From positions 1,862 to 65,861 of the IMG/VR virus record IMGVR_UViG_3300030060_008569: 64,000 bases of DNA. One strand, 5' to 3'. A program made the position numbers and the translations under genes. The notes under the pieces are model-generated. The model was given only the letters and a program-made list of their open reading frames with translations. It was not told the DNA's origin and made no database searches. Shown here one piece after another: positions 15,500-46,713 of this stretch (position 1 is the stretch's first letter; every line of letters begins with the position of its first letter). Source of the stretch: a virus. Taxonomy: Duplodnaviria; Caudoviricetes.

Positions 15500-15576
15500 G
15501 GGCGAGTAGCTCAGTTGGATAGAGCAACGGTCTTCTAAACCGTGGGTCGCGGGTTCAAGTCCCGCCTTGCCTACCA
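15500..15576 (+). tRNA. tRNA-Arg(UCU) with encoded CCA
   Basis: Acceptor stem GGGCGAG/CTTGCCT, D-arm AGCTCAGTTGGATAGAGC, anticodon loop CTTCTAA, T-loop GTTCAAGTCC, 3' ACCA; upstream TTGACT-17-TAGTAT promoter. Confidence 0.95.
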
Positions 15577-19823: not shown

Positions 19824-20352
19824 AGCAATATTTTAAGAGCTTTTTATCTATGTCTAAAAGTTTTCTAACGTAATCTATTTTAAAATTTTTGAGTTTAAAG
19901 CAATCTGCTTTTGACAGGTCTGCCGAGCATTGACTACCAGCCATTACTCCCATATTAAAAACAAATCTTTCTTGTTCCCCAAAGCTATAACCTTCGGGAA
20001 ATAAATATTTAGCACAAAACATATAAAGATTACGCCGCCAACGCCACATCTTTTTTGTGCTTCCCATCGTGAAGCCTATGACAAACGCCTCATCTTTTAC
20101 TCTGAGTCCTCTACCAAGAAGCAAATGAATGCTGTCATGGTTATAAAGAGAAACATTACCAGCAAATAAACCAATATCATATTTAGGGTTCTCTACAAGT
20201 TTTATAATAAGCGGAACATCCTCCGCTTCTAACTTGAATCCCCCCATCGAATCCAAACCGTCTTTTAGTGTTAAGCCTGTTGTGCTTAACGGTATGTGCC
20301 ATTCGTTTATTTGGCGTTCAGTGTTAAGTTTATGGTCATAAGGCGTTGCCAT
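19768..20352 (-). CDS. Coq4-like protein
   Basis: HDSIH.LLG......EAFV resembles the Coq4 HDxxH-x11-E metal site. Confidence 0.45.
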   Translation of the reverse strand: MATPYDHKLNTERQINEWHIPLSTTGLTLKDGLDSMGGFKLEAEDVPLIIKLVENPKYDIGLFAGNVSLYNHDSIHLLLGRGLRVKDEAFVIGFTMGSTKKMWRWRRNLYMFCAKYLFPEGYSFGEQERFVFNMGVMAGSQCSADLSKADCFKLKNFKIDYVRKLLDIDKKLLKYCYEVEKKCFPDSPESQRLL

Positions 20353-21058
20353 TTTTAAGTTCCTCTTCTAAAGCCCCTGCATACATCTGCCACCAAATAG
20401 ATTCTGCGCGTGGATGTGGGTGAGGTGGATAAGAAAATTCTTTAGGGTATGGTTTCCAAGGTTGCCAATCCATTTGTGTGTAGTGCAGTAAACAAGTTTT
20501 TTCTCTATCGTAAGGTTCACAAACAAATTTATTTTTTTGGTCGCTTGCTATACCTCCATCATTGCAGCACCATTTGTGAGGTAATGGATGCCAATATTTT
20601 GAAAGCCTACCTGAGAAATGGCCTATATGCTCTCCATTCTCATTCTTTTTCATCTCTTCCAAAGAGGGCCAATGGGGTAAACTTTTAAACCTTTCGCATT
20701 CGTAAACAATAACATCTGTTCTTTTAGTGTCCAAAGAAGTCCAAACTTTTCCCTCTGGAATTTCTATATTAAATAAATCCTTCGGGTCTTTAAGAAATAT
20801 TTGGTCTACGTCTAAATATATGGCGCGACCTTTAAACCCGTGAACTTCTGGTATTGCAAACCTAAAGTGAGAAAACTTTGTGTACCAATCTTTTTTATTC
20901 CAGCCTTGCCAATTCTCAGCACCTCTGGCTGTATCCATCCACTCTATAACATAAGGAACTGAGCAGTATTTTTTAATGCTATACTCTAATGCTTTTTCCG
21001 CTTTGCTATTGGCCCCGCCATCAGTACCAACGTAAATGTAAACAGTTTCTTCGCTCAT
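20336..21058 (-). CDS. GT-A glycosyltransferase (GT8-like)
   Basis: IYVGTD, T.FS..RF.IP....FKGRAIYLDVD, LLHYT...QPW. Confidence 0.85.
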   Translation of the reverse strand: MSEETVYIYVGTDGGANSKAEKALEYSIKKYCSVPYVIEWMDTARGAENWQGWNKKDWYTKFSHFRFAIPEVHGFKGRAIYLDVDQIFLKDPKDLFNIEIPEGKVWTSLDTKRTDVIVYECERFKSLPHWPSLEEMKKNENGEHIGHFSGRLSKYWHPLPHKWCCNDGGIASDQKNKFVCEPYDREKTCLLHYTQMDWQPWKPYPKEFSYPPHPHPRAESIWWQMYAGALEEELKNGNAL

Positions 21059-23941: not shown

Positions 23942-24532
23942 TTATCTTAAGGAGTTTACTAATTTTGCGGGCAACTCATTAGTTTCTAAAACATTTCCAA
24001 GGTCATCTGTTTTAAATCTAAAAGCAGTCTTTTCCTGTCCGGTAGATTCAAACATTATTTCTTTTTTAACAATCTCTTTGTAGGGTTTTACTTTTATTAA
24101 AGTAATAGTAGCCTTAACAGGTGCGTCATCCATTTTTGAATAAACGTGGACAGTAACTATGTTTTCTCCTTGTATGACACCTCTAAAAGAAACAACCTCT
24201 TCATTGTAATTTACAACAGTTCCCGCCACGCCTTGTCCTAAACTGTTATTTCTACTTTTACCTAAAGCATCATGGTCTAAGCTAATTAAACTTCCATCTC
24301 CACCTTCCCTATTATTAAAGCTGACTATATGACCTGATGCAGCTTTAACATAAATATCTAAATCATCATTACTTTCCCCATCCCAAGTTAAGACAACCTC
24401 ATAAATAACATTGGGTGGCCTAGCCTTAGTCTTTTCCTCCTCGGTTTTTAAAAGAAATAAAATTGCCACCAACATCAGAAGGCAACAAAACAATACATCA
24501 ATAAACGGCCTAAATGAAAAGAACCTCCTCAT
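23942..24532 (-). CDS. ExbD/TolR/MotB-like single-TM protein with YfaP/DUF2135-like soluble domain
   Basis: PFIDVLF TM carrying the conserved Asp; V.LTW....DLDIYV and LDHD motifs. Confidence 0.65.
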   Translation of the reverse strand: MRRFFSFRPFIDVLFCCLLMLVAILFLLKTEEEKTKARPPNVIYEVVLTWDGESNDDLDIYVKAASGHIVSFNNREGGDGSLISLDHDALGKSRNNSLGQGVAGTVVNYNEEVVSFRGVIQGENIVTVHVYSKMDDAPVKATITLIKVKPYKEIVKKEIMFESTGQEKTAFRFKTDDLGNVLETNELPAKLVNSLR

Positions 24533-24756
24533 CCGTCATCACCTATCGCCTCTACTGGACAGTTTTCCAAAGCCTCTGCACAAAGGTCTGCTTCACCCTG
24601 CTCTTCAGGCTGCTTGTAAACGTAAGAATAGCCATCCTCATGGTTGGTGAAGTTGTCTGGTGCTAGTTCACGGCATAAATTACAATCAATACACTCAGTA
24701 TCGACATAGAACTTACCAGCTACATTATCTTCGTATTTATCTTCTTTAGCTGCCAT
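24529..24756 (-). CDS. ferredoxin (single Fe-S cluster)
   Basis: GKFYVDTECIDCNLC...APDNF...CPVEAI. Confidence 0.92.
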   Translation of the reverse strand: MAAKEDKYEDNVAGKFYVDTECIDCNLCRELAPDNFTNHEDGYSYVYKQPEEQGEADLCAEALENCPVEAIGDDG

Positions 24757-25231
24757 TTGAATTTTCCTCTAACTTAAACTTTAATATCATAAGTTGAACT
24801 TGCAAGGGTAAACTAAAAATAATGCCACAAATTGTTGTGTAAAAGGCGGTATTTAACCCCTCTTTCAGCCCCGCAACGATTTCAGAAGTAGGCATGGAAC
24901 TGTCCAAGCTACCTTTTGTTGCTATCACCAAACCAATAATTGTACCTAAAAGTCCCAAAGAAAAGAAATGCTCCGCCGTAAACCAGCCCATGTCTGCCCT
25001 TTTTGTTAAATAAGTTACAGCCTCTTTCTTCTTTCTTTTATTTATCTTATCTGATAAGAAACATAACCTTCCAACATATAAAGACATAATTACATATAAA
25101 GACATAATTAGAATTGAAAGATGAGAAAGGTCGTTTGTTATTATTTCGCTGATTATTTTATTTTGCTCTGCAAAGAATATAGCAGTAGCTACAATAGCAT
25201 TTAAAAGGAACCATTTGGTAAAAGTGTTCAT
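24746..25231 (-). CDS. MotA/TolQ/ExbB proton-channel family protein
   Basis: Four TMs; LGLLGTIIGL and GLNTAFYTTICG match the family's last two TM helices. Confidence 0.8.
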   Translation of the reverse strand: MNTFTKWFLLNAIVATAIFFAEQNKIISEIITNDLSHLSILIMSLYVIMSLYVGRLCFLSDKINKRKKKEAVTYLTKRADMGWFTAEHFFSLGLLGTIIGLVIATKGSLDSSMPTSEIVAGLKEGLNTAFYTTICGIIFSLPLQVQLMILKFKLEENSNGS

Positions 25232-25243
25232 GGTATTTCTTTA

Positions 25244-26083
25244 TTATTTACACCATTCTTTTACAATATTTTTAATTACAAAGGCTAAATTCTTCCATTC
25301 TTTAAGTCTCCGTAGAGTATAGGGGAGCCAATTTTCGCCAAAAGGCACATATATTCTAACTTTATGACCTTTATTTTTGTAATTTTCCTGCAAATCTCTT
25401 CTTATTCCGTATAAAAATTCGTAGTCAAAAAACTTGGGATTCGGGATTAGCTCCTCTATATCTTCTAACAACTCTTCGTCATGGGTAGCTATGGCTGGTT
25501 TATTTGCCTTATTTGCGTACAAACTTGCAGCATAGTTATAAAAACAGCCACTAATATCAAAATAGTGTTGGTAAGCTATTTTTTCACTCTCCTTGTACGC
25601 CCCTTTAACCAAGCGAACCGATATGTTACTTTTTATAAGTTTTTGCAGGTCAACTGCGGTTCTTAAAAGGTTGGCTTGAATGGCAACGCCAACATTTCCG
25701 AACCTTTTATTTAAAAGGATGGCTAAGTCTATGGTTATATCGGTCACACGCGAATCTTCCATATCTAAACGAATTGTATGGCCTTTTTTATTTGCAAGTT
25801 TTGCTATGAAGGCCATGAGGCCAATAGCCATTTTCGGATTTATATGTACGCCTAATTGTGAAGGCTTTATAGATATATCAATTTTTTCATTTGAAAAAGA
25901 ATTTATAATTCTTATGTATTGATGTTTCGCTTTGTAACAGTCTAACGAGTTTTTACTTTCTTCCCCCACATAATCAACAGACACTTCGTAACCATCTTCA
26001 ATCAGTTTATTTATTACTGGCTTGGCCGATTCAAGGGTGTGACCAGCAATAAACCTCTTTGCCAGTGGATACAAAAATCTCAT
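25244..26083 (-). CDS. monofunctional proline dehydrogenase
   Basis: RFIAG, D.VGE, SIKPSQLG, RLDMED, IQA.L.R, VRLVKGAY.E, IATHD, LYGIR, IYVPFG..W.PY..RRL.E. Confidence 0.93.
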   Translation of the reverse strand: MRFLYPLAKRFIAGHTLESAKPVINKLIEDGYEVSVDYVGEESKNSLDCYKAKHQYIRIINSFSNEKIDISIKPSQLGVHINPKMAIGLMAFIAKLANKKGHTIRLDMEDSRVTDITIDLAILLNKRFGNVGVAIQANLLRTAVDLQKLIKSNISVRLVKGAYKESEKIAYQHYFDISGCFYNYAASLYANKANKPAIATHDEELLEDIEELIPNPKFFDYEFLYGIRRDLQENYKNKGHKVRIYVPFGENWLPYTLRRLKEWKNLAFVIKNIVKEWCK

Positions 26084-27015
26084 TTTAATTGATTCCTCAA
26101 GTAAAGATTGTAAACTAAAATTCCAATAGCAATATCTTCTAGTGATACTCCAGTAGAATCAAAGACAGATACTCCCGCCTCTAAACTAATTTGCTTGTTG
26201 TTTTTAATAACGTGTCGCAAAGACCAAGTGTTCAAGTCTTGCCCAAATCTATATTGCAATTCTCCAGAATGAAACGCTTGAGCAGGGTCATCACATATTA
26301 TATTTGAAGCTCCAGCAATTACATTTTTCATAAGTTCCCTTTTTCCTACTGCATCTGCACCTACTGCATTAACATGACAGTTATCTTTTAGGTAATTAAA
26401 ATCTAAATATGGCTCTGTAGATGGAGTAAGTGTTGTTACCAAGTCTGCTTGCCTGACAGCTTCTTTTACGTTTGATGGGTATTTAATTACATTTAAACTT
26501 TTTGGAATCTTATCAGCAAGTTTTTGAATTGCTTCTTCGTTTTTATCGTAAAGAGAAACTGTTTTAATATCTGGGAAAACGCTCCTGTAAGCTAAAAAAT
26601 GATAGTAAGCCTGAAGGCCGCAGCCGACAAATGCAATTTCTCTTATATTATTTGGCAAACAATACTTAGCAGCTATGGCCGAGGTGGCCGCAGTTCTATA
26701 AGCAGTAAGGGTGGTGCAATCCATAGCCATTAATGGCTGACCCGTCTCTCTATCGTTAAGAAGAAGTGTTCCTAGTGTTGTTGGTAAAGAGTTAACTAAA
26801 TGATTGTTTGGATAAACCCCAATCCATTTTAAGCAAGCATAATCTCCTAAAGCCGCTGGCATTGCACGAAAATCTCCTTGTGTGTGAGTATCTAGGTAAA
26901 TCTTGGGAACCATCTTTGCAGACTCATCTAGGAAAGCGCTTTCGATAGAAGGTATTATTTTACCCCACTCTTTGTCGAGTAAGTGTGCAACTCCCAAGTC
27001 GTTTAATTGCTTCAC
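26080..27015 (-). CDS. ornithine cyclodeaminase / mu-crystallin family protein
   Basis: FRAMPA, KW.GV.P.N, LTAYRTAA.SA.AA, G.G.QA, HVNAVGAD..GKREL, FDSTG.SLED. Confidence 0.9.
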   Translation of the reverse strand: MKQLNDLGVAHLLDKEWGKIIPSIESAFLDESAKMVPKIYLDTHTQGDFRAMPAALGDYACLKWIGVYPNNHLVNSLPTTLGTLLLNDRETGQPLMAMDCTTLTAYRTAATSAIAAKYCLPNNIREIAFVGCGLQAYYHFLAYRSVFPDIKTVSLYDKNEEAIQKLADKIPKSLNVIKYPSNVKEAVRQADLVTTLTPSTEPYLDFNYLKDNCHVNAVGADAVGKRELMKNVIAGASNIICDDPAQAFHSGELQYRFGQDLNTWSLRHVIKNNKQISLEAGVSVFDSTGVSLEDIAIGILVYNLYLRNQLK

Positions 27016-30326: not shown

Positions 30327-30713
30327 TTAAGCATGAAGTTTAACAACCTCGTCAATATTTTTAGCTCTATTTAAAACTATAAACTTATAGTCATCAAAAT
30401 CAAATTTTGAATTTAACATTTCAACGGCTTTATCAATATCTAATTCTCCGCAAGTGTAAAAATCAAACTGTATTAGCGCGGGGTCTTGCTCGTCCCATAT
30501 ATGAAATGCCATGTGGCTTGTTTTAAGTAAGCAACAGGCAGTCACGCCTTTATTTCCCTCGTCCTCTACATAAGAAACTACAGGCTTGGATGCAAGCTGC
30601 ATGCCATTGCCCATAATAAAATCTTCTATCCAAAGACTGGTTTCAACAAGGTCATCAGCGGTGGGAACTTTTTTAATCGTTCCTTTTAGTATTAGGTGAT
30701 TATGTTGTAGCAT
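30327..30713 (-). CDS. speD: pyruvoyl-dependent S-adenosylmethionine decarboxylase family proenzyme
   Basis: H.HLI, G.T..CLLKTSHMAFHIWDE, QFDFYTCG; 128 aa. Confidence 0.85.
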   Translation of the reverse strand: MLQHNHLILKGTIKKVPTADDLVETSLWIEDFIMGNGMQLASKPVVSYVEDEGNKGVTACCLLKTSHMAFHIWDEQDPALIQFDFYTCGELDIDKAVEMLNSKFDFDDYKFIVLNRAKNIDEVVKLHA

Positions 30714-33433: not shown

Positions 33434-33464
33434 GCTATGAATATAGCACGTTTTTGATGGGTTG

Positions 33465-33668
33465 TCAACCCCAATATTCGCGTTCTTGCTTGGACTTTAG
33501 TTTTTGGATATATTTAGCTTTTCTTTCTTTCTTATATTTCTTTCGGGTGGGCTTTTCGTAGTATCTTTTTTCTCTAGCGTAATCTAGAGTTTTCTCTTTC
33601 AATAGTTTTCTCTTGAGCTTTTTGATGCCCTTCTCTACATTTTCCCCTTTTTTTAGTTTTATTTCCAT
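33465..33668 (-). CDS. rpsU: 30S ribosomal protein bS21
   Basis: GENVEK.IKKLKRK, R.KRYYEKPT; 67 aa, highly basic. Confidence 0.88.
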   Translation of the reverse strand: MEIKLKKGENVEKGIKKLKRKLLKEKTLDYAREKRYYEKPTRKKYKKERKAKYIQKLKSKQEREYWG

Positions 33669-33669: not shown

Positions 33670-34818
33670 TTAAAATTGAATCCCTAATTCTTTCATGTTC
33701 TCATTAAATTTATCAAAAGGTACATCCGAATAGTTTAATACTATTGGCAGCGAAATATCACCCCCTCGGTTCTGAACCTTCCTTTCGTCAAAGAATCCCT
33801 CTGCCATTAATTTAGCCACTGAAGATATGGAAAATGCGGTTGACTTTTGCATGGCGGTAAATTGCAAGTCGTAGCCTACAATGATTTCTTTTTTCCAAGT
33901 AACATTGCCACCACTCACCTCTACCTTTAACAGCACGACATCTCCAGTGTGATTTTCGCAGTTGTTAAAAATATCTTGTAAGCATTCTTTAGACAGTTTG
34001 GTATTTCTAATTAAAAGCCTAACCATATCTCTGTGGCCTTTATATCTTATAGTTTTATAAGAACAATTAGACACATCTCTTTTTGCCATGCTGGCGATTG
34101 AATGGGAAGCTCCTCCACTTGTGTAAAAGGCCTCTAGCTCTTCATCCCCCAGTAAATCAAAAGTCACTGGCTCTAGCCCATCCATGCCCTTTACCTTTTC
34201 TATGAGTCCGTTATTTAAAACCTCACAGTCGTCTTCATATTCATTTATAAGCCCATCTACAGACCAAGTACAAGCATAATTTAAAGGTGGGTTTATTTTT
34301 ATAGCAGGGATGCCACCGACCATCATCTTAACATTTTCAACCTCGTGATGTAACTCTGAATAACCTTGCTCTGCTAAAATATTTACCCAACCGGGGGCCA
34401 ATCCCAAGTCTGTAAAGATAGGTTTAGTTGCGTTCTCTTTAGCGTAGTCATTTATGTTTTGAGAAACGTCAACTCTACCCCCCAAGTCACAGTAGCGAAT
34501 GCCGTTGTCTATACAATACTTTGCTACAGTTTCAGTTTGATAATAAGGTAAACTACTGATAACAATATCTGGTTTTACTTGAGCCTCTAAACCTTTACAA
34601 ATATCTTCTGAGTTACTAACAATAAAAAACTCATTGCGAGGTGCTCCCACGATGTTATTACCCTCTTCGTCTTGCGTCTGTTCGTAATTGACTTTTTTAG
34701 GAATGTTCTCTGCCGCATCTGGATTAGTGTCCATTCCAACCACATGAAATCCGAATTTGTCCATTGCATAAGCAATGGCGGTTCCCATTCTTCCAACACC
34801 TAATACTATAGCTTTCAT
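33670..34818 (-). CDS. saccharopine dehydrogenase / lysine 6-dehydrogenase family oxidoreductase
   Basis: GVGRMG, SSLPY, YCDLGG, GLAPG, VGGIP, PPLNY..TWS..GL.NEY, LEAF.TSGG, YKT.RY.GH. Confidence 0.88.
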   Translation of the reverse strand: MKAIVLGVGRMGTAIAYAMDKFGFHVVGMDTNPDAAENIPKKVNYEQTQDEEGNNIVGAPRNEFFIVSNSEDICKGLEAQVKPDIVISSLPYYQTETVAKYCIDNGIRYCDLGGRVDVSQNINDYAKENATKPIFTDLGLAPGWVNILAEQGYSELHHEVENVKMMVGGIPAIKINPPLNYACTWSVDGLINEYEDDCEVLNNGLIEKVKGMDGLEPVTFDLLGDEELEAFYTSGGASHSIASMAKRDVSNCSYKTIRYKGHRDMVRLLIRNTKLSKECLQDIFNNCENHTGDVVLLKVEVSGGNVTWKKEIIVGYDLQFTAMQKSTAFSISSVAKLMAEGFFDERKVQNRGGDISLPIVLNYSDVPFDKFNENMKELGIQF

Positions 34819-35228
34819 ATTTCTTCTATCCTTTTTGACTTATCATCAATCACCAAATCGCAAGCTGGTTTAATATACTTACCTTTGGAGCCGGTAGACA
34901 AGTCATTAAACTTGCACCCCCAACCTTCTAGCTGGTTCCAAGTAAAATCATAGTAACATCTGCCAGCCGCTTTAGATTTTTCAGAGCCTCCGCGAGCTGT
35001 CCAATAAATAATGTACCAACCTTCGTCGTACATTTTGTTTATTTTAGCTATGTTTTCTTGATGAGGTTTCGCTAAATCATAACGCCTCTTACCTTCTTCG
35101 TAAAAACATACCGTTTCATCTATGTCTACCAACGCCACTTGTTGGTCATCCGCAGCAAACTGCTTCGAATCGTGAAATTCCATTTTATTATTTGTAAACT
35201 TTACGAGTTCTTGGTCCGGATTCATCAT
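34815..35228 (-). CDS. capless HAD-superfamily phosphatase
   Basis: VDIDET, WTARG, KP..D..IDDK. Confidence 0.8.
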   Translation of the reverse strand: MMNPDQELVKFTNNKMEFHDSKQFAADDQQVALVDIDETVCFYEEGKRRYDLAKPHQENIAKINKMYDEGWYIIYWTARGGSEKSKAAGRCYYDFTWNQLEGWGCKFNDLSTGSKGKYIKPACDLVIDDKSKRIEEI

Positions 35229-35390
35229 CAGCTTCAGCAGACTCTTGTGAATCTCTGTATTGGTGAATTTCAGAAACCCTAGCCATTAAAAACTCCCTAT
35301 CCTCTTGGGATAATTCTTTGGTATCTGACCAAGGCATACCTAAAGTAGTCATAATATGCCAATTTTCTTCTTGTGTACTCATTTTACTCA

Positions 35391-36926
35391 TTATTTCATT
35401 CCTTGTGGAAAAGTTAATTTGTCTGCGTGGTTAACAGTCCAGCTAATTTCATGGGTAACAGCCCTGAATGTTCTTGCTGCACTAGGAAATCCATTGCCAG
35501 ATTTTTTAACACCGCCGAAAGCTAAGTGCGATTCAGCAGCGATTGAACCTCCGTTCCAGTATATCATGCCAGCATCGCATTCGTCTCTCATTACTCTTGC
35601 TTTTCTAAAGTCATTTGTCAACACTCCAACAGCTAAACCATATTCAGTATCATTGTAAATTCTAATAGCATCCTCGACTGTATCAAAGGGAATTATTGCT
35701 ACATGAGGCCCGAACACTTCATTCCTTAGAAAACCTGCATCGCAGTTAGTCCATTCTCTTTTATAAACCATTGGAGTGCTGTAGTATGCTCCGTTTTCAC
35801 CAGTGTAAACAGGGTCAAGTAACACTTCAGCTTTTGGGTCTGAGTGTACCAGTTTATTCATGAATCTTATCTTACTAAACCCTTGCTCATTAATAATTGG
35901 GCCATAGTATATATCTTCGTTTGGTACTAGCTCTTCCCAAACCATTCCATCTGGACAACCAGATGAGCCAAGCATAGATTTGAATGGGTTCCCTGTTTTT
36001 ATTTGTTTAGCTTTTGCAGCAAATTTCTCGGAAAACTCATGGTATATACTTCGCTGTACAATCATTCTACCAGATGATACGCAACGCTGACCAGACAGCT
36101 TAAATGCACTAGCAATAGAAGCCTCAATGGCTAAATCAATTTCAACGTCATCAAAAACAATGCAAGCGGATTTACTACCTAATTCGCATGAGGTAGTTTT
36201 GTGCCATGATTCAGCAGCAACTTTACGAATGTGTTGTCCGACATCAGCACTACCAGTAAAACAGATGTGGTCGCAATTACCCCTAACCAAAAAATCGCCA
36301 GTAGCACCATCGCCATGCACCAAGTTAATGACCCCACGAGGGATGCCAGCCTCCTCATAAATTTGAACAGCGGCTTGAGTTGACATTGGTGCGTCTTCAC
36401 TTGGTTTAATTACAATAGTATTCCCCTCTACTAAAGCTGGGGCAGCGTTCCAAAACATGCCTATTGCCAGCGGAAAGTTAAATGGAGTTACAATAGCTAT
36501 TACACCTTTAGGCTTTCGTAGCATATACGCATCTTTTTCAGCAATTTCTGAAGAAACAGCTTCGCCATGACTATAACGGCCAGAACCAAAAGCAAACTGT
36601 GCCATGTGCAAGGCTTCATTAACCTCTGCGATACTTTCGTTGTAGTTTTTCCCTGTTTCAAGTGAAATAATCGTAGCTAATTTATTTTTATCCCTTTCAA
36701 TTATTTGAGCAACCTTATTTAAATAATCTGAACGGGTAAATCTACTAACCTTTTTCCAAGTTTTAAAAGCCTCTCTAGCAGAAAGTAGCGCCTTGCCAAC
36801 CTCATCCTTGCAACTTAAGGGGAACGCACCTTGCGCCTTTCCGGTTGCAGGGTTAATTTTAGTATACATGTCGGCGGTAGCTCGCCACACGCCATTGATA
36901 TAGTTCCTACCTTCGAAATCCCTCAT
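35391..36926 (-). CDS. NAD(P)+-dependent aldehyde dehydrogenase
   Basis: PFNFP, KPSE, FTGS..VG, ELGSKS (catalytic Glu), GQRC (catalytic Cys), EVFGP, FGGVKKSG; start MRDFEG overlaps the upstream stop (ATGA). Confidence 0.95.
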   Translation of the reverse strand: MRDFEGRNYINGVWRATADMYTKINPATGKAQGAFPLSCKDEVGKALLSAREAFKTWKKVSRFTRSDYLNKVAQIIERDKNKLATIISLETGKNYNESIAEVNEALHMAQFAFGSGRYSHGEAVSSEIAEKDAYMLRKPKGVIAIVTPFNFPLAIGMFWNAAPALVEGNTIVIKPSEDAPMSTQAAVQIYEEAGIPRGVINLVHGDGATGDFLVRGNCDHICFTGSADVGQHIRKVAAESWHKTTSCELGSKSACIVFDDVEIDLAIEASIASAFKLSGQRCVSSGRMIVQRSIYHEFSEKFAAKAKQIKTGNPFKSMLGSSGCPDGMVWEELVPNEDIYYGPIINEQGFSKIRFMNKLVHSDPKAEVLLDPVYTGENGAYYSTPMVYKREWTNCDAGFLRNEVFGPHVAIIPFDTVEDAIRIYNDTEYGLAVGVLTNDFRKARVMRDECDAGMIYWNGGSIAAESHLAFGGVKKSGNGFPSAARTFRAVTHEISWTVNHADKLTFPQGMK

Positions 36927-37480
36927 TTTCTTGTACTTTCCATTAATCCTTTTACGTTGTCCTTGCAAAACCCATCTCCAGTTCTATTTATAAGCTCATA
37001 AATGACTCCCGTCAACTCAGAAGGCTTTGTAAATACCTGAACTAAACCTTCGCACCTCAAGGGTGCGCTCGAATAAAATTCAGCATAACCAGCATTAAGC
37101 CACATTTTCATTGTAGCATCAACATCTTCTACTTGATAAGCTATATGATGAACTCCGGGTCCATTTTCCTCAACCCAGTCACCCACAATAGAGCCTTTGG
37201 GTCCGTCACTAACGAATATTTCAGGGGGAGAGTGGTAGGGGTGGAATTGAGCCTCAACTTTTTGACCTTTAGAGTCTGGAGCGTCAGCTAAAAGCACCTC
37301 CCATTCTGAGATTTCAGGATGCCTCTCTTCTGGTGGGAGTAAAGCTAGGCACTCCGCCTTAGTCCCATCACTGAAATCTATTTCAAATTCTGTGCCAAGC
37401 GTATACCCCAAGCACCTTTTAAGAAATTTGGCTGTTTTTTTCCTGTTTTTTACTCTGTAGGCTATATGGTCTAACCTCAT
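36923..37480 (-). CDS. VOC-family enzyme resembling the catalytic domain of 4-hydroxyphenylpyruvate dioxygenase
   Basis: LDHIA, GPGVHHIAY, LVQVFTKP, YELINR..GF...N; His/His/Glu triad. Confidence 0.75.
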   Translation of the reverse strand: MRLDHIAYRVKNRKKTAKFLKRCLGYTLGTEFEIDFSDGTKAECLALLPPEERHPEISEWEVLLADAPDSKGQKVEAQFHPYHSPPEIFVSDGPKGSIVGDWVEENGPGVHHIAYQVEDVDATMKMWLNAGYAEFYSSAPLRCEGLVQVFTKPSELTGVIYELINRTGDGFCKDNVKGLMESTRK

Positions 37481-37548
37481 TTTAAATATTATATCATATA
37501 AGAAATGTTTTTTCAATTTTCTTTAAAAAGGGTGTAATATATATTGAG

Positions 37549-38813: not shown

Positions 38814-39176
38814 TTATTTGTCATCTGTTCCCCCGCAATTCTCTCTGATTATATCCTTTTCGTTTAATTCTACCCAATAAATCTCGTAAGCTATAGTATC
38901 TTCCAAGGCTTCAAACTTGTGGTACTCTTTGGGTGGGCAGGTAGTTATTTGACCTGTTTTGACGAAAGTTTCATCAACTAAATTATAATCATTTTTCCAA
39001 GCTGTAATTTTTAAACAGCCGGACTCAACAAAAAAGGCATTATACTTGTACTCGTGCTTGTGTTTTGAGCAGAATCCGCCTTTATTTACTTCTATTCTGT
39101 GTATTTCTACGTTATTTTTGCAGAATAATGGCTGAGTTTCTCCCCAAACTTTACCCTGTACGTTATTCATCACCAC
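38814..39176 (-). CDS. cupin-domain protein (mannose-6-phosphate isomerase C-terminal-like)
   Basis: GKVWG, CSKHKH..K...F.V.SG, P..YH.F. Confidence 0.8.
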   Translation of the reverse strand: MVMNNVQGKVWGETQPLFCKNNVEIHRIEVNKGGFCSKHKHEYKYNAFFVESGCLKITAWKNDYNLVDETFVKTGQITTCPPKEYHKFEALEDTIAYEIYWVELNEKDIIRENCGGTDDK

Positions 39177-39542: not shown

Positions 39543-40304
39543 ATGGAAATATACTACGAACATTATTTTGGGAGTATGACGCAACATGATATGATTGTAT
39601 GTTGGGTTCTCGCTAAGAATGTTTTGCCTCAAGAGGAGAAGTTCGCCTTAGAAAACGGCTGGCGAGAAGTTTATGAGACAGAACAAGGCGTATGGGTTCA
39701 AGCAAGAAGCGTAAGATTGAAGACTTCTTCGTTTAGAACTAATAAAAAAGTTAGAAAAATGCTCAATCCAGCTACTGGTATTGAAAGTAATTTTAAACCC
39801 GCTTCTCAGTGTAATTTAGAGGAGCTTAATGAGGTATATCACAAATATGCAAAATACAAAAATTTTCCAATAGAAAAAAACTACATAGAAGATTGTCTTG
39901 TGGATATAGACTCAAAAATAATAGGAGAGTATAGAGAAGATGGACTGCTTAGAGCTTACGTAATATGTAGAATGCATGATGAGTCAGCAAAGGCTATGAC
40001 ATCGCTACAGTTTTGTTGGGACTACGATAAACCCCAGATGTTTTTGGGCAAATTCAGCATGGTCAAAGAGCTACAATTCGCAATAGAAAATAAGCTAGAC
40101 TGGGTTTACATAGGGGATGGGTATCAAAAAATTTGCGAGTACAAATGTAGTTTTCCGGGGTTTCAATTTTGGACGGGACGAAAGTGGATAAGTGATATAA
40201 ACTTATACAAAGAACTTATAAAAAATGACGACAAAGTAAAAACAGTTCAAGAATTAGACAAGTTATCAAAAGATTATATGGAAAACAAAACATTTGAAAA
40301 GTAA
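39543..40304 (+). CDS. aminoacyl(Arg/Leu)-tRNA-protein transferase (ATE1/Bpt family)
   Basis: L..GW, SVR....F...K..RK, Y.KY, WDY.....LG.FS...E...A......VY.G, YK..F. Confidence 0.7.
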   Translation: MEIYYEHYFGSMTQHDMIVCWVLAKNVLPQEEKFALENGWREVYETEQGVWVQARSVRLKTSSFRTNKKVRKMLNPATGIESNFKPASQCNLEELNEVYHKYAKYKNFPIEKNYIEDCLVDIDSKIIGEYREDGLLRAYVICRMHDESAKAMTSLQFCWDYDKPQMFLGKFSMVKELQFAIENKLDWVYIGDGYQKICEYKCSFPGFQFWTGRKWISDINLYKELIKNDDKVKTVQELDKLSKDYMENKTFEK

Positions 40305-40312: not shown

Positions 40313-41008
40313 ATGGACTCAGACATCAACATAGATTTCACCGACAAAATAAAAGCCAACGAAGCGGATAAGTTAACTTATCGTGGGCCAGATGGATTTC
40401 CGGGAGAAGACAAAAGAGAATTTAAATATTTAGATTTAGATATTAAAAAACTTTTAGACTTTCCGCCTCCCGCTAATTCAAGTAAACAAACTTTAGAAGA
40501 ACTTGCTGAGGTTAAAGAAATAACAGAATTAGAGCACCCCGAAAGCTTTACGTCTAAATTAAAAGAAATGGACAAAGAGCCGTATGCATTTGTATATGAC
40601 TATTACGAAAAAATATCCGGAAAAAAAATACCCAAGAAAGCTTTTGAAATTATAAATAGCGGAGACATTGAAACATTCGTTATGAAGTTGAAGCTTCATT
40701 ACAATAGACCAAGGCCGCACGAATTGGCTTTACATTACAAAACATATTTAAGGTATAATAAAAAAATAGCGAGTAAAAGCGGAACTGCCGCTTCGCCATC
40801 TTACCCTAGTGGACATACAATGGCAGCATACTTTGCAGCGCATATTGCCGCGCATATTAGACCAGACCTTAAAGAGCAGCTAATCAAAAGAGCAGATTTT
40901 GTAGCTTACTCAAGATTATACGAAGGACTTCACTTTCGTAGCGACAACGACTTTTCTGTTTATTTGGTTGAGAATGTTTTAATGCCAGCCTTTTTAAAGG
41001 CTATTTAA
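40313..41008 (+). CDS. PAP2 / vanadium haloperoxidase superfamily phosphatase
   Basis: K.HYNRPRP, PSYPSGH, SR...G.HF.SD. Confidence 0.88.
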   Translation: MDSDINIDFTDKIKANEADKLTYRGPDGFPGEDKREFKYLDLDIKKLLDFPPPANSSKQTLEELAEVKEITELEHPESFTSKLKEMDKEPYAFVYDYYEKISGKKIPKKAFEIINSGDIETFVMKLKLHYNRPRPHELALHYKTYLRYNKKIASKSGTAASPSYPSGHTMAAYFAAHIAAHIRPDLKEQLIKRADFVAYSRLYEGLHFRSDNDFSVYLVENVLMPAFLKAI

Positions 41009-41010: not shown

Positions 41011-41413
41011 TGGTGGAGGCGAGGGGAGTCGAACCCCTGTCTTTGGAGCCTATCGGCTCAGACTTCTACAAGCTTAGTCGGTGTTAAATACTCGCTTGGC
41101 ATGTCACCGACAAACGGCCTACACGAGTTTTGAGCAACCTTTTATCCTAGTGCTGCTCGGCCCTAGTTTTTTGCCCGCTATCGACGCCCTAGCTCCTTAA
41201 CGAGCATCCAGAGTAGGACGGGTAACTTACGCAGTTACAGCAGCTTCTTCAGCCCAGCCGAACTTAGCGAGAATCGCATCAGCTTCAGCAAGTGAAGGAG
41301 CCATATCAACATTATTGGCAGTTGAATTACCTTGATAGATGATTTAAGAGGCCGACTATCATCCTCTGCTTGCTATCTGGCGTAAGAACCCAAATCGAAT
41401 CCAGTACGCCCCC
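41011..41413 (-). ncRNA. ssrA: tmRNA
   Basis: 5' GGGGGCGTACTGGATTCGA; 3' GACAGGGGTTCGACTCCCCTCGCCTCCACCA; internal tag reading frame 41319-41227. Confidence 0.93.
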
Positions 41414-41420: not shown

Positions 41421-42128
41421 TTACACATTTTGATTATAGTTTTTAATGTTTTTACAAAGTTTCTGCGCTTTCTTCCTAGCGTAAAATAATCTAGACATAA
41501 CTGTTCCTAGCGCACATTTTTGCATCTTTGCTATCTCTTCGTAAGAAAGGCCTTCCGCTACAGCCACTAAGCACTCTTTATGTTCAGGGGAAAGACTGCT
41601 TAAAACTTGCTCCAACTCTTTAGAAAGCTCTTCGTTGTTGTCGATTATCTCTAAAAGCTTATCTGGCTGCTCTGTTTTTTCAACAACCATTTCAAAAAGA
41701 GTTTTACCCCAGTCGTTAGACTTTGGCGTTTTTCGTATGTCCAAGCTGTTTTTCGCCGAGGGTATTTTCGTGTCGTCTGCTTGATTTTGGGGGCCATTGT
41801 TACCGTAGTGGCCAATGTACGCTTCAAAAGAAACTTCAGCTTTCCTTTTTTTCCAAGAGTTATAATCGAATGCCGCGCTCCTCATTACCCTGTATATCCA
41901 AGTTTTAAAATGGCAATCAAGTCTAAATTTAGGGAAAGCTTTCCAAGCTTTTAAGCAGCCTTTCTGAAAGATGTCTTGAGCTTCATGGTAGGTGTCGGTA
42001 TACCTATGAGATATTGCCATCATATATTCACCATGCCTTTCTACAAGAATATCAAATGCTTTTTTGTTGTGTTCCGAGGCTAGAACAGATAATTCTTTAT
42101 CAGACTTTTCACCCAAAGACGCGCTCAT
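41421..42128 (-). CDS. ECF-type sigma factor
   Basis: AFD.LV.RH, AQDIFQ...LKAW, FKTWIYRV, GLSYEEIA......GTVMSRLFYAR. Confidence 0.9.
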   Translation of the reverse strand: MSASLGEKSDKELSVLASEHNKKAFDILVERHGEYMMAISHRYTDTYHEAQDIFQKGCLKAWKAFPKFRLDCHFKTWIYRVMRSAAFDYNSWKKRKAEVSFEAYIGHYGNNGPQNQADDTKIPSAKNSLDIRKTPKSNDWGKTLFEMVVEKTEQPDKLLEIIDNNEELSKELEQVLSSLSPEHKECLVAVAEGLSYEEIAKMQKCALGTVMSRLFYARKKAQKLCKNIKNYNQNV

Positions 42129-45220: not shown

Positions 45221-45946
45221 TTAATAGTTATTTAATAATACTCTTATAGTTTCTTGGGGCTCAGTTACCGGCCAGTAAAGGCCATCTCCATTTTTTCGTA
45301 TGTCCTCACATATCTCGTAATCATTCCCGCCAGCATAACACTTGTCTCCAAAGAAAATAATTTCTGAGTCTTTGTTGTTTTCCCTTATCCACTGAGAAGC
45401 TTGAGATTTGTCGCTCCCCCTTGGGTTTATGTCTATACTTATTTGGCCTCCTATAGAAACATCTATATCGGGGAATTGAGACCTTACAAATGAACTTATG
45501 GCGGCCCTTTCTTTATTAGCCTTGTCCCAATCAAAATACCTTTGTCTTTCTGGTTTATCTGCATTTCTGCCTACAATAGAAAAGTTAAGCATTCCAGAGC
45601 GATGCTCTATGTGGTTCCCTGTTTTAGTGTCGTAATTGGTTTCTAATAAAAAATCATTTAATATATTCAATAGTTTAGCTGGAACGTCCCATTTGTTTTT
45701 GTAAACGTAAGAATCTCTACTGCAATCGTAAAATTCGTTAGCCATAGAAGGAAATATACCGGCGCACCTAGACAAAATGCTATTGGGTAGTTGCTCTTTT
45801 ATTTTTTTCATATCACTACCAGAAACTAAATAAACCTTTTTACCTGACATCCAAGTAACAAACTGCATTGTGAACGAAGTGCCTGCTTTACCTCTGGGTG
45901 GGGTTAAAGTTCCATCCACATCAAATAAAAAAAATCTAGAATTCAT
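45221..45946 (-). CDS. phosphomannomutase, eukaryote-like HAD-IIB type
   Basis: LFDVDGTLT, VSGSD, IE.R.GM.NFS..GR, IGGQISID, FFGDK...GGNDYEI. Confidence 0.88.
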   Translation of the reverse strand: MNSRFFLFDVDGTLTPPRGKAGTSFTMQFVTWMSGKKVYLVSGSDMKKIKEQLPNSILSRCAGIFPSMANEFYDCSRDSYVYKNKWDVPAKLLNILNDFLLETNYDTKTGNHIEHRSGMLNFSIVGRNADKPERQRYFDWDKANKERAAISSFVRSQFPDIDVSIGGQISIDINPRGSDKSQASQWIRENNKDSEIIFFGDKCYAGGNDYEICEDIRKNGDGLYWPVTEPQETIRVLLNNY

Positions 45947-46713
45947 TTGCTTGCCTTTTCATCAAAATTTAAAGTATGTTGCAGCTCGCCGCCCGTGGGG
46001 ATACCTCTTTCAGAATTTGCGATAGCATTTTCAATGTCAATATATTCCATAAAATTATTTATTTGAGAGTCTTTAGAGCAAGATTTTATTTGTATCCCGT
46101 ATTTACTTGCAGTTTTGGTAAGCCACTTTATCCATCCGTACAGTTCTTTGTATAGGCTTCTGTTCCATTCTTTTTCTTTCTCAGAAAGGCTTTGCTCGTG
46201 ATGATAGTCGCTTTGAGTATTATCTAAATCGCAGCCTAAAAAGTATATATTCTTCGCACCCATCCAAATTAAAATGTGAAGGGCTGTTGCCATTACATTA
46301 TTCTTCCATATGAAGTGAGTGTTGTCATTGTTATTTGTAAAGATGTGCTCATGGTTTTCATATTTTTTAACATCCGCATAAAATAAATTAAAATTATTTT
46401 TTATCTCCCTGTCAGAGCAAGCTCTGTTTTCGTAGCCACCCCTCATTACTTTTATAAAAGGCTCCCAAAAAACCTGTCTAGAGTAGCAGTTGGGGTCGTC
46501 CATCCCAAACCAAATGTCGGGCTTTACAAAGGGGTAAGAGTTATTGACCGCTGCGACCAGCCTGCCAACGCCATTTAATTTTTGAGGTTCTATTTGTTTT
46601 AAGGAAGGGCCGGGACAGCAAAAGTAAACGTCTAGATTACTGTTTAATTGATTAAAAGATACAGCCTTAAATCCTGAATTTGTGTTGTACCATAAGGGCA
46701 TGCTTTTATTCAA
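45943..46713 (-). CDS. Maf/MptE-like (DUF115) glycosyltransferase-fold protein
   Basis: GPSL, AVN, PD.W..MD, A.....WMG.K.IYFLGCD. Confidence 0.7.
   Translation of the reverse strand: MNKSMPLWYNTNSGFKAVSFNQLNSNLDVYFCCPGPSLKQIEPQKLNGVGRLVAAVNNSYPFVKPDIWFGMDDPNCYSRQVFWEPFIKVMRGGYENRACSDREIKNNFNLFYADVKKYENHEHIFTNNNDNTHFIWKNNVMATALHILIWMGAKNIYFLGCDLDNTQSDYHHEQSLSEKEKEWNRSLYKELYGWIKWLTKTASKYGIQIKSCSKDSQINNFMEYIDIENAIANSERGIPTGGELQHTLNFDEKASK

What the first reader, a model, noticed from the sequence alone, without database searches (positions are those of the whole stretch)
33670..37480. Lysine-catabolism-like operon: HPPD-like dioxygenase + aldehyde dehydrogenase + lysine-6-dehydrogenase-family enzyme
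Seen: behind a TTGAAA/TATAAT leaderless promoter (~37488-37516) lie a single-domain VOC protein with HPPD-type motifs, an intact ALDH, a small ORF, a HAD phosphatase and a saccharopine/lysine 6-dehydrogenase homolog, followed by bS21. Known: LysDH makes aminoadipate semialdehyde, an ALDH oxidises it to 2-aminoadipate, and the 2-oxoadipate dioxygenase HglS uses HPPD-like chemistry. Inference: a phage-borne lysine-degradation route yielding NADH and 2-hydroxyglutarate. The aminotransferase step is absent from this window. The ALDH could also act as the P5C dehydrogenase completing the Orn>Pro>Glu route 9 kb away. Multi-step amino-acid catabolism is unusual phage cargo.
Basis: partly seen in the sequence, partly recalled or inferred. 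Interest (0 to 1): 0.8.

Follow-up and report, generated by a model that had tools for sequence, protein, structure and literature searches.

The report
Marine phage lysine-dehydrogenase/aldehyde-dehydrogenase gene module

Summary
They are a single-domain VOC protein (36923-37480), an intact ALDH (35391-36926), a 67-aa ORF, a small HAD-like protein, a saccharopine-DH-fold enzyme (33670-34818) and bS21. They are tightly packed, with two ATGA overlaps, behind a near-consensus leaderless-type promoter.

The dehydrogenase family matches solved P. horikoshii lysine 6-dehydrogenase far better than saccharopine or carboxyspermidine enzymes (175 vs 91 and 33 bits). ALDH lies upstream of it in 67 of 80 related IMG/VR loci, across several gene orders, and in 5 Ureibacillus/Lysinibacillus loci. 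An adjacent lysDH/aasadh pair is verified in Ruegeria pomeroyi. Some divergent phages insert a lysine-6-transaminase-family gene and an ArgZ-like arginine dihydrolase between the two.

Best reading (about 0.5): lysine (or a close analogue) goes to its semialdehyde and then to the dicarboxylic amino acid, giving NADH and ammonium.

The VOC is not an HglS-family member. Its core resembles MMCE/glyoxalase, only its tail resembles HPPD, and it often occurs without the other genes, so the 2-hydroxyglutarate step is unsupported. bS21 was found in no related locus. ProDH and the OCD-like gene are not obligatory partners.

All three enzymes belong to abundant subfamilies not found in 400 sampled bacterial genomes.

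The parts
37488..37516 (-). Sigma-70-like promoter (TTGAAA, 17 nt with TG, TATAAT). Its -10 element ends 7 nt before the VOC ATG, a leaderless-type arrangement.
   Evidence: One of 13 such sites in the window vs 0.1 in shuffles. A -10-like element 4-11 nt before the VOC ATG occurs in 16 of 41 distinct related loci vs 177 of 1325 other ORF starts.
36923..37480 (-). Single-domain VOC metalloenzyme, 185 aa. H5, H112 and E162 sit at the usual ligand positions. R9, R13, E87 and R166 are invariant. The C-terminal tail is HPPD/HMS-like. Chemistry unresolved.
35391..36926 (-). Aldehyde dehydrogenase, 511 aa. Catalytic motifs are intact. It has an ~18-aa insertion and belongs to a subfamily not found in the sampled bacterial genomes. 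Its start overlaps the VOC stop (ATGA).
35188..35391 (-). 67-aa ORF of unknown function, probably a passenger.
   Evidence: No family found. tblastn match in 4 of 80 related loci, at other positions.
34815..35228 (-). Small HAD-like protein (DIDET motif). A paralogue lies at 30327-30713. Probably nucleotide- or phosphate-related rather than part of the pathway.
   Evidence: PHROG 1238 and 415. Present in 31 of 80 loci by tblastn. Paralogue from clustering.
33670..34818 (-). NAD-type lysine-6-dehydrogenase-family enzyme, 382 aa. GVGRMG and D30 are read from the sequence. Its start overlaps the HAD stop (ATGA).
33465..33668 (-). Ribosomal protein bS21, last gene of the unit.
   Evidence: Not found beside the module in 80 related loci.
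33440..33468 (-). Next leaderless-type promoter (TTGACA, 17 nt, TATATT), 6 nt before ATG 33433 of the nucleoside-deoxyribosyltransferase-like gene. It marks the end of the unit.
25244..27015 (-). Overlapping OCD/mu-crystallin-family gene (26080-27015) and monofunctional proline dehydrogenase (25244-26083). A possible second feeder for the ALDH, in a separate transcription unit.

Best explanation
This is one leaderless-type transcription unit of an uncultured marine phage (relatives are 160-180 kb). Its conserved core is two enzymes.

Step 1: the saccharopine-DH-fold protein is a lysine-6-dehydrogenase-family, NAD-type amine dehydrogenase. It oxidatively deaminates the side-chain amine of L-lysine, or of a close analogue such as ornithine. 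The product is the omega-semialdehyde and its cyclic imine, plus NADH and ammonium.

Step 2: the partner ALDH oxidises that semialdehyde to the dicarboxylic amino acid (2-aminoadipate, or glutamate from ornithine), giving a second NAD(P)H.

The phage would thereby turn host basic amino acids into reducing power and assimilable nitrogen during infection.

The VOC protein is a frequent add-on that is translationally coupled to the ALDH but can be separated from it. Its chemistry is unresolved: either an HPPD-like 2-oxo-acid oxygenase or an MMCE/glyoxalase-like proton-transfer enzyme. The HAD-like protein, the 67-aa ORF and bS21 are passengers of the operon.

Shown: gene content, operon structure, family placement and conservation of the pair. 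Inferred: the substrate, the direction of the reaction and the benefit to the phage.
For: Family placement of the dehydrogenase:
- A profile of 59 family members hits the solved LysDH 3abi at 175 bits (E 1.6e-50). The human AASS saccharopine-DH domain scores 91, saccharopine reductase 77, and carboxy(nor)spermidine DH 33 and 29.5. The single sequence gives the same order.
- 3abi is named as L-lysine 6-dehydrogenase in PMC10413350 (passages).
- hhalign against an Agrobacterium plasmid homologue gives probability 100% and E 3e-55, with shared TWS.DGLINEY, EAF.TSGG and RY.GH motifs.

Conservation of the pair:
- In 80 IMG/VR loci holding a homologue, ALDH lies upstream on the same strand in 67. 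Of the 13 without it, 8 have less than 1.6 kb of upstream sequence.
- The pair persists in at least six different gene orders.
- The viral dehydrogenases form one clade (SH-aLRT 97), and 53 of its 63 rows are ALDH-linked.
- Five Ureibacillus/Lysinibacillus loci have an ALDH immediately upstream of a 32-34% identical homologue. That homologue hits 3abi at E 2e-40.
- R. pomeroyi SPO0234 (lysdh) and SPO0235 (aasadh) are adjacent and listed as experimentally verified (PMC4334477, passages).

Related genes and operon structure:
- In 7 divergent loci the genes between ALDH and the dehydrogenase are a LAT-family transaminase (TIGR03251, 484 bits against a 520.8 cut-off) and an ArgZ-like arginine dihydrolase (254 bits).
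- ATGA overlaps and flanking promoters define one operon.
- ALDH catalytic motifs are intact, and the protein is 74-90% identical across the 120 best clusters.
Against: - No assay exists. Identity to any characterised LysDH is only about 28-33%.
- The ALDH reaches no curated cut-off. It scores alike for GucD (311 bits), aminobutyraldehyde DH (295), BADH (294), SSADH (290), P5CDH (286) and P6CDH (258).
- Where a LAT-family gene is present, a LysDH would be redundant. The dehydrogenase may therefore take another amine or run in the condensing direction.
- The 80 loci are related phages and include near-duplicate pairs, so synteny is not fully independent evidence.
- In about 20 or more loci the module sits among glycosyltransferase, epimerase, UDP-Glc-DH-like and UGM genes.
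- Three plasmid-borne alphaproteobacterial homologues that were inspected have no adjacent ALDH.
- The role of the VOC is unexplained.
Confidence: 0.5

Rival explanations
1. LysDH and ALDH make 2-aminoadipate, a host aminotransferase makes 2-oxoadipate, and the VOC acts as a single-domain, HPPD-like 2-oxoadipate dioxygenase/decarboxylase. It would be an analogue of HglS and would yield 2-hydroxyglutarate.
For: - The VOC has His, His and Glu at the usual VOC ligand positions, and an invariant Arg four residues after the first His (H5, R9; 29 of 29 sequences). HglS has the same spacing, H70 and R74, where R74 binds the distal carboxylate (PMC7286885, passages).
- Its C-terminal tail matches HPPD and HMS.
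- An HGLS-family viral cluster appeared at rank 11, score 0.92, in the language-model search made with homologue P0328. That is a lead only.
- The VOC stop overlaps the ALDH start, and the VOC lies just upstream of ALDH in 47 of 80 loci.
Against: - No PF07063 hit. hhalign against E. coli YdcJ gave probability 1.6%.
- The best full-length matches are MMCE and glyoxalase.
- The same H..R spacing occurs in E. coli glyoxalase I.
- An invariant E87 could be a fourth metal ligand of the glyoxalase/MMCE type. This is an untested inference.
- The VOC stands alone in 25 of 80 VOC-centred loci, and about 20 ALDH-dehydrogenase loci lack it.
- No aminotransferase was seen among the 38 window ORFs scanned.
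Confidence: 0.1
2. The ALDH is mainly a P5C (glutamate-semialdehyde) dehydrogenase. It would complete an arginine/ornithine to proline to glutamate route together with the phage OCD-like enzyme and ProDH (and with ArgZ-like enzymes in other phages), as in the cyanobacterial ArgZ/AgrE plus PutA route. The dehydrogenase would be a side entry, for example an ornithine 5-dehydrogenase.
For: - An OCD-like gene and a ProDH lie 7.6-9.4 kb away in the window. The complete relative G406 also has both, 10-14 kb from its module.
- An OCD homologue lies within 8 kb in 7 of 80 loci.
- An ArgZ-like arginine dihydrolase lies inside the module in divergent loci.
- The ALDH scores 286 bits on the P5CDH model PRK03137.
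Against: - Of 3 relatives at least 96% complete that carry the module, 2 have neither ProDH nor OCD.
- The P5CDH score is far below its 648-bit cut-off and no better than other ALDH families.
- The window's OCD-like protein scores best on archaeal alanine DH and on Pyr2C/Pip2C reductase models.
- ProDH and OCD are in another transcription unit.
Confidence: 0.12
3. The module is biosynthetic. The dehydrogenase would condense an aldehyde or keto compound with an amine (saccharopine-, opine- or polyamine-type chemistry). Its product would be a precursor for a glycan, a nucleotide sugar or a DNA modification made by neighbouring genes.
For: - In L013, L081, L082, L087 and L090 the pair is embedded between GT1 genes and a 4,6-dehydratase/epimerase.
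- Other loci place UDP-Glc-DH-like, UGM, GT2, DegT aminotransferase and FkbM methyltransferase genes beside or inside the module.
- The module lies inside the replication and nucleotide-metabolism block of these phages.
- Members of this fold do catalyse reductive condensations (PMC10413350, passages).
Against: - The family is far closer to LysDH than to any condensing member.
- The sugar genes are absent from many loci, including the window's unit, so co-location may only reflect a shared variable island.
- No known glycan pathway uses this enzyme pair. This statement is from recall and was not searched.
Confidence: 0.12
4. The VOC and the ALDH form a reactive-carbonyl detoxification pair (glyoxalase-like plus aldehyde oxidation), or a meta-cleavage-type pair. 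The dehydrogenase would be functionally unrelated.
For: - The N-terminal 29 residues of the VOC align with E. coli glyoxalase I.
- MMCE and glyoxalase are the VOC's best PDB matches.
- The ALDH scores 268-275 bits on hydroxymuconic-semialdehyde DH models.
- The VOC occurs on its own in huge-phage contigs.
Against: - The glyoxalase I model scores only 17 bits against a 120-bit cut-off, and the extradiol dioxygenase models match only 35-50 residues.
- The ALDH-dehydrogenase link is more widespread than the VOC-ALDH link (67 vs 47 of 80 loci).
Confidence: 0.08

Closest known systems
Adjacent lysdh (SPO0234) and aasadh (SPO0235) genes of Ruegeria pomeroyi DSS-3, the lysine dehydrogenase pathway to 2-aminoadipate
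   Same: A saccharopine-DH-fold lysine dehydrogenase sits next to an aldehyde dehydrogenase in a marine organism, giving a two-step route from lysine to 2-aminoadipate (PMC4334477, passages, citing Neshich 2013, which is not held).
   Different: The phage proteins belong to subfamilies not found in the sampled bacterial genomes. The gene order is ALDH first. A VOC gene is usually coupled upstream. I could not fetch the Ruegeria sequences, so similarity to them is untested.
Pyrococcus horikoshii L-lysine 6-dehydrogenase PH1688 (PDB 3abi)
   Same: It is by far the best solved relative (175 bits with the family profile). It shares the GLAPG, VGGLP, TWS, EY, EAF and R.xGH motifs.
   Different: Identity is only about a quarter to a third. 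The phage protein has an insertion of about 25 residues in the NAD-binding domain. Substrate specificity is untested.
Lysine 6-transaminase (LAT) plus piperideine-6-carboxylate dehydrogenase route to 2-aminoadipate in actinomycetes and flavobacteria (recalled knowledge)
   Same: In 7 divergent phage loci a LAT-family gene (484 bits against a 520.8 cut-off) lies directly beside the same ALDH.
   Different: The window itself has no LAT-family gene. The ALDH fails the P6C-dehydrogenase model, at 258 bits against a 730 cut-off.
HglS (DUF1338, PF07063), HPPD and hydroxymandelate synthase: VOC-fold 2-oxo-acid oxygenases
   Same: VOC fold. His, His and Glu at the usual ligand positions. An Arg four residues after the first His, as in HglS. 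An HPPD/HMS-like C-terminal tail (PMC7286885, passages).
   Different: No sequence membership in the HglS or HPPD families. It has one domain of 185 aa, against two domains in HPPD. Its core is closer to MMCE and glyoxalase.
Cyanobacterial arginine dihydrolase/ornithine cyclodeaminase (ArgZ/AgrE) plus PutA route from arginine to glutamate
   Same: Across the related phages there are ArgZ-like, OCD-family, ProDH and ALDH genes.
   Different: These genes are never all present in one phage locus examined. The ArgZ-like score (254 bits) is below its 450 cut-off. ProDH and OCD are missing from 2 of 3 near-complete relatives.

Membership tests
L-lysine 6-dehydrogenase (EC 1.4.1.18) within the saccharopine-DH fold | Two-domain Sacchrp_dh architecture (NAD(P)-binding domain plus C-terminal domain) | tested here: met
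   PF16653 89.8 bits and PF03435 35.1 bits, both above their cut-offs.
L-lysine 6-dehydrogenase (EC 1.4.1.18) within the saccharopine-DH fold | Closer to a characterised LysDH than to saccharopine reductase/DH, carboxy(nor)spermidine DH or homospermidine synthase | tested here: met
   Family profile: 3abi 175 bits; AASS 91; saccharopine reductase 77; 4ina 33; 8deb 29.5.
L-lysine 6-dehydrogenase (EC 1.4.1.18) within the saccharopine-DH fold | NAD+-dependent oxidative deamination of the epsilon-amine of L-lysine | not testable with these tools
   Needs an enzyme assay. The GxGxxG motif and an Asp at the end of strand 2 (GVGRMG, D30) are read from the sequence only.
Carboxy(nor)spermidine dehydrogenase | Match to the curated model NF043000, or to the solved CASDH | tested here: not met
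   No NF043000 hit at E <= 0.01. 8deb scores 29.5 bits over the N-terminal Rossmann part only.
Aldehyde dehydrogenase superfamily | Aldedh domain with the catalytic Cys, the general-base Glu and the oxyanion Asn | tested here: met
   PF00171 404.7 bits. GQRC, ELGSK and FNFP motifs.
Piperideine-6-carboxylate / AASA dehydrogenase | Reaches the curated equivalog score of NF050084 | tested here: not met
   258 bits against a 730 cut-off.
P5C (glutamate-semialdehyde) dehydrogenase | Reaches the curated score of PRK03137 or TIGR01237 | tested here: not met
   286.5 against 648, and 255.9 against 659.65.
HglS / DUF1338 2-oxoadipate dioxygenase-decarboxylase | Sequence membership in PF07063 | tested here: not met
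   No Pfam hit at E <= 0.01. hhalign of the family alignment against E. coli YdcJ gave probability 1.6%.
HglS / DUF1338 2-oxoadipate dioxygenase-decarboxylase | HHE metal triad plus an Arg near the first His that binds the distal carboxylate | tested here: inconclusive
   H5, H112, E162 and R9 are conserved. E. coli glyoxalase I has the same H5..R9. No structure could be obtained.
4-hydroxyphenylpyruvate dioxygenase | Two-domain protein of about 350-400 aa that reaches TIGR01263 | tested here: not met
   32 bits against a 277 cut-off. The protein has a single 185-aa domain. Only residues 158-194 and about 103-143 align.
Methylmalonyl-CoA epimerase | Reaches TIGR03081 | tested here: not met
   42.6 bits against a 114.95 cut-off, although the match spans the full length. 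MMCE is the best PDB match at 45.6 bits.
Glyoxalase I | Reaches TIGR00068 | tested here: not met
   17.4 bits against a 120 cut-off. hhalign against E. coli GloA aligns only 29 N-terminal residues.
Ribosomal protein bS21 | Reaches TIGR00030 / PF01165 | tested here: met
   44.6 against 28.95, and 43.9 against 27.

The most novel reading that the evidence does not exclude
Ocean phages carry an ancient metabolic module built from enzyme subfamilies that have no close bacterial counterparts in the genomes sampled. A diverged lysine-6-dehydrogenase and its own ALDH are joined to a new single-domain, HPPD-tailed VOC oxygenase. That oxygenase would do HglS-type (or another) oxidative decarboxylation of a 2-oxo acid derived from a basic amino acid. 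The phage alone could then drive lysine or ornithine carbon and nitrogen into central metabolism during infection. The module would be expressed from leaderless mRNAs, together with a phage bS21.
Probability: 0.12. Interest if true: 0.85.

Novelty: new variant of a known kind. Interest (0 to 1): 0.6.

Why it matters
Phage auxiliary metabolic genes are known mainly for photosynthesis, nucleotide, phosphate and sulfur metabolism. This would be a widespread module for catabolising basic amino acids.

Its spread:
- 142 IMG/VR stretches encode a relative of the dehydrogenase.
- The dehydrogenase has 260 relatives at E <= 1e-30 among representatives clustered at 50% identity.
- The VOC has 1838 relatives at E <= 0.001 among clusters at 90% identity.

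If confirmed, it would add a new way in which marine viruses redirect host nitrogen and reducing power. It also offers three diverged enzyme subfamilies with no characterised member, including a compact VOC enzyme of unknown chemistry. The enzymes can be tested directly in vitro, because each is a soluble single protein.

Tried and rejected
Structure and look-alike searches
- The single-sequence AlphaFold model of the dehydrogenase was useless (mean pLDDT 36.5) and was not used.
No fold search was possible for the dehydrogenase or the VOC.
- The ESM Atlas does not hold the window's VOC. The homologue P0328 gave mostly viral VOC clusters, with an HGLS cluster at rank 11. I treat that as a lead only.

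Searches that gave little
- Cultured-phage collection: no close relative of the region. The dehydrogenase gave one weak hit in a 636-kb uncultured phage. The VOC and the ALDH matched only two huge uncultured phages, where they are not adjacent.
- The names that sources give the homologues are generic: 'aldehyde dehydrogenase (NAD+)', 'saccharopine dehydrogenase-like', and twice 'lysine 6-dehydrogenase'. They carry no weight.
- Searching TIGR01263 in two genomes gave no usable HPPD reference sequence, so no HPPD hhalign was done.
- Rfam found only the tmRNA and a tRNA, and no riboswitch near the module.

Empty answers
- The LAT-like and ArgZ-like genes and six other neighbour families were not found in the 65.9-kb contig by tblastn.
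- The LAT-like query and the bS21 query found nothing in G406-G409. The tool warns that such empty answers show nothing on their own.

Sequencing runs
- No RNA holder is listed, so nothing can be said on expression.
- Holders with at least half of the sampled words are labelled as marine metagenomes or carry a coded organism name.

Literature
- Four searches for phage reports of these genes found nothing relevant. Searches returned 0 papers. Searches returned 7 and 2 papers, none about phage AMGs of this kind (judged from listings and abstract starts only).
- This covers only the held open-access library.
- Yoneda 2010 (PMC2832993) and Neshich 2013 (PMC3834855) are not held. I know them only through passages and reference lists of PMC10413350 and PMC4334477.

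Ideas considered and dropped
- The module is bacterial rather than viral. Rejected: the record is a virus record, and it has rIIA-like, RNR and sigma-factor genes and IMG/VR relatives.
- The MAG contigs L005, L013 and L011 are cellular evidence. Dropped: their gene content looks viral.

Full report
WHAT IS THERE

The window is 64 kb of a 65.9-kb virus record, estimated 42% complete and classed by IMG/VR as a provirus. It carries the following phage and accessory genes:
- an rIIA-like gene
- class I ribonucleotide reductase, a sigma-70-type factor, UvdE and a RuvB-like ATPase
- a second, ECF-like sigma factor
- a tmRNA and a tRNA-Arg

On the minus strand between 37516 and 33465 lie six tightly packed ORFs:

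| Gene | Coordinates | Evidence |
|---|---|---|
| VOC protein | 36923-37480 | Glyoxalase_4 |
| ALDH | 35391-36926 | Aldedh, 404.7 bits |
| 67-aa ORF | 35188-35391 | no family hit |
| 137-aa HAD-like protein | 34815-35228 | PHROG 1238/415 |
| Saccharopine-DH-fold enzyme, 382 aa | 33670-34818 | |
| bS21 | 33465-33668 | |

The relatives start at MRLDH and MRDFEG, which fixes the VOC ATG at 37480 and the ALDH ATG at 36926. The junctions are ATGA, TAATG, ATGA and a one-base spacer.

PROMOTER

- TTGAAA, 17 nt (with TG), TATAAT at 37516-37488 matches 11 of 12 positions. Its -10 element ends 7 nt before the ATG, with no Shine-Dalgarno sequence.
- The same arrangement, with a 17-nt spacer and the -10 element 5-9 nt from an ATG that opens at least 50 codons, occurs 13 times in the window. 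Twenty mononucleotide shuffles gave a mean of 0.1.
- One of those sites is at 33468-33440, just after bS21. The six genes therefore form one unit bounded by two promoters.
- In related loci, a -10-like hexamer 4-11 nt before the VOC ATG is present in 16 of 41 distinct upstream regions. Crudely called ORF starts elsewhere show it in 177 of 1325 cases.

THE DEHYDROGENASE

- By single sequence the best solved relative is PH1688 (3abi), E 2.9e-17.
- With a profile of 59 diverse family members (alignment A1) the scores are:

| Target | Bits |
|---|---|
| 3abi | 175 |
| human AASS saccharopine-DH domain | 91 |
| saccharopine reductase | 77 |
| carboxy(nor)spermidine dehydrogenases 4ina / 8deb | 33 / 29.5 |

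- PMC10413350 (passages) names 3abi as L-lysine 6-dehydrogenase, citing Yoneda 2010. It also re-assigns 4ina and 4rl6 to carboxyspermidine DH.
The enzyme groups with LysDH.
- A Ureibacillus homologue (32% identical) hits 3abi at E 2e-40.
- An Agrobacterium plasmid homologue aligns to the family profile with probability 100% and shares its signature motifs.
- The family is large: 725 clusters at 90% identity, and 2137 representatives at 50% identity, 260 of them at E <= 1e-30.
- In a quick maximum-likelihood tree of 75 rows (98 rows before I removed those at least 85% identical), all viral rows form one group (SH-aLRT 97). Planctomycetota come next, and Ureibacillus plus Asgard archaea lie on the far side. 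The tool warned that long branches join there.

LINKAGE

Seen from the dehydrogenase (80 IMG/VR loci kept out of 142 matches):

| Gene within 8 kb | Loci (of 80) |
|---|---|
| ALDH, upstream on the same strand | 67 |
| VOC, directly upstream of ALDH | 47 |
| HAD-like | 31 |
| OCD homologue | 7 |
| ProDH | 1 |
| bS21 | 0 |

- Eight of the 13 loci without ALDH have less than 1.6 kb of upstream sequence.
- Several loci are near-duplicates, for example L003/L004 and L088/L089.
- The pair survives in at least six different gene orders. The commonest flanks are replication genes: RecA-like, DnaB, primase, PD-(D/E)XK nuclease, Pol III alpha and an exonuclease.
- Among 24 loci from species genomes, ALDH is immediately upstream in five Ureibacillus/Lysinibacillus loci, and in L005 and L013, which look viral. 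It is absent in the Planctomycetota and Asgard loci.
- Three alphaproteobacterial plasmid homologues have no adjacent ALDH. Two of them have a divergent Lrp/AsnC regulator.
- R. pomeroyi SPO0234 (lysdh) and SPO0235 (aasadh) are adjacent and listed as functionally verified. The pathway is said to lead to the osmolyte aminoadipate under high salt (PMC4334477, passages).

Seen from the VOC (80 loci kept out of 110 matches):
- 52 have ALDH next to the VOC and 44 have the dehydrogenase.
- 25 loci with at least 2 kb of downstream sequence have neither.
- Those 25 mostly hold VOCs at or below 59% identity, on contigs of up to 533 kb. By eye their neighbours are ClpX-like, GT2-like and PRPP-synthase-like genes.

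EXTRA GENES IN RELATIVES

- In L080, L081, L083, L088, L089, L092 and L094, two genes lie between ALDH and the dehydrogenase. One is DDAH/ArgZ-like: arginine dihydrolase model 254 bits against a 450 cut-off. The other is a class-III aminotransferase that scores 484 bits on the L-lysine 6-transaminase model (cut-off 520.8), against 228 bits for the next family.
- Five of these loci also have a truncated nucleotide-sugar-dehydrogenase-like gene there.
- This ties the ALDH to an enzyme whose family makes the same semialdehyde from lysine. That is the strongest independent hint for the substrate class.
- Other loci place GT1, GT2, epimerase/dehydratase, UGM, DegT and methyltransferase genes around or inside the module. 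This keeps a biosynthetic reading alive.

THE ALDH

- Catalytic motifs are intact.
- It is the most conserved gene of the set, at 74-90% identity over the 120 best clusters.
- It reaches no curated NCBIfam cut-off and scores similarly on many models: GucD 311, aminobutyraldehyde DH 295, BADH 294, SSADH 290, P5CDH 286, P6CDH 258.
- Its best solved relative is an ALDH deposited as 6fku/6fkv, at 263 bits.
- No relative at E <= 1e-90 was found in 400 sampled genomes of one phylum. The only hit was the viral-looking contig of G001, the genome the sample was centred on.

THE VOC

- Conserved residues include H5 (at least 90% of sequences), Y8, R9, R13, H83, E87, H111/H112, Q148, E162 and R166, plus a GFC..NVK.LMEST tail.
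- The family profile hits MMCE best (45.6 bits), then glyoxalases. HPPD follows (33 bits) in two pieces: the region of the second His and the C-terminal tail. Hydroxymandelate synthase 2r5v matches the tail.
- It is not an HglS-family member.
- Its H5..R9 spacing equals the H70..R74 of HglS (PMC7286885, passages), but also the H5..R9 of E. coli glyoxalase I.
- No relative at E <= 1e-15 was found in the same 400 genomes.
- Its chemistry stays open.

THE P5C IDEA

- The window's ProDH is of the Thermus type (169 bits).
- The OCD-family protein scores best on archaeal alanine DH (197 bits), then Pyr2C/Pip2C reductase (149) and OCD (146).
- Of four larger relatives that carry the module (one further record was not held), only G406 has ProDH and OCD. 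Among those at least 90% complete, that is 1 of 3.
- The ALDH therefore does not depend on ProDH.

VERDICT

- The conserved core is a LysDH-family enzyme with its own ALDH. It most likely oxidises lysine or a close analogue to the dicarboxylic amino acid, giving NAD(P)H and ammonium (confidence about 0.5).
- The HglS-like step is unsupported (about 0.1).
- The module is a new, widespread variant of a known two-gene pathway, built from subfamilies not found in the bacterial genomes sampled.
- I found no report of it in the held literature.

Noticed in passing
window, ATGs at 2371, 2744, 11626, 12483, 14490, 28793, 29764, 33433, 37480, 42563, 51904, 53642 (minus strand) and 62810 (plus strand): Thirteen ORFs start 5-9 nt (mostly 6-7) after a TTGACA-like, 17-nt, TATAxT-like promoter, against a mean of 0.1 in 20 shuffles. 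The phage seems to use leaderless or near-leaderless mRNAs for many transcription units, and it also encodes bS21.
   Followed up: partly
window 33465-33668: bS21 is the last gene of a metabolic operon. It was not found beside the module in 80 related loci. A query of four larger relatives also found none, but the tool says that empty answer shows nothing on its own.
   Followed up: partly
window 41011-41413 and 15500-15576: A phage-borne tmRNA (Rfam 138.6 bits; tag AEADAILAKFGWAEEAAVTA) and a tRNA-Arg(TCT).
   Followed up: no
window 39543-40304 and 40313-41008: A weak arginyltransferase-like protein (36.6 bits against a 252 cut-off) lies next to a weak PhoC/PAP2-like acid phosphatase.
   Followed up: no
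window 7828-8787 and 41421-42128: Two sigma factors: one with sigma-70 regions 2, 3 and 4, and one ECF-like.
   Followed up: no
window 24746-25231: Weak similarity to the anti-phage ZorA N-terminal region (24 bits against a 500 cut-off). The gene and its neighbour 23942-24532 recur as a pair in about 15 related loci (clusters 16 and 15).
   Followed up: no
L094:5181-7168, and the same genes in L080, L081, L083, L088, L089, L092: Phage-encoded ArgZ-like arginine dihydrolase and LAT-family aminotransferase lie between the ALDH and the dehydrogenase.
   Followed up: partly
L104:6775-7992 and L101:6845-7828: A Volactin-family actin-like protein (250 bits) and a class I fructose-bisphosphate aldolase (320 bits) are encoded next to the module in some phages.
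   Followed up: no
L005, L013, L011 (contigs binned into Pseudomonadales, SAR202 and Bacteriovoracaceae MAGs): These MAG contigs carry the phage-type module or phage-like small genes, and they share gene clusters with IMG/VR contigs. They may be viral contigs that were binned with cells. The Bacteriovoracaceae one is 546 kb and holds the VOC and the dehydrogenase about 300 kb apart.
   Followed up: partly
window 45221-46713, 20336-21058, 57272-57991, 38814-39176: Other accessory genes: a phosphomannomutase, an MptE-like protein, a GT8 glycosyltransferase, a 2OG-Fe(II) oxygenase and a small cupin.
   Followed up: no
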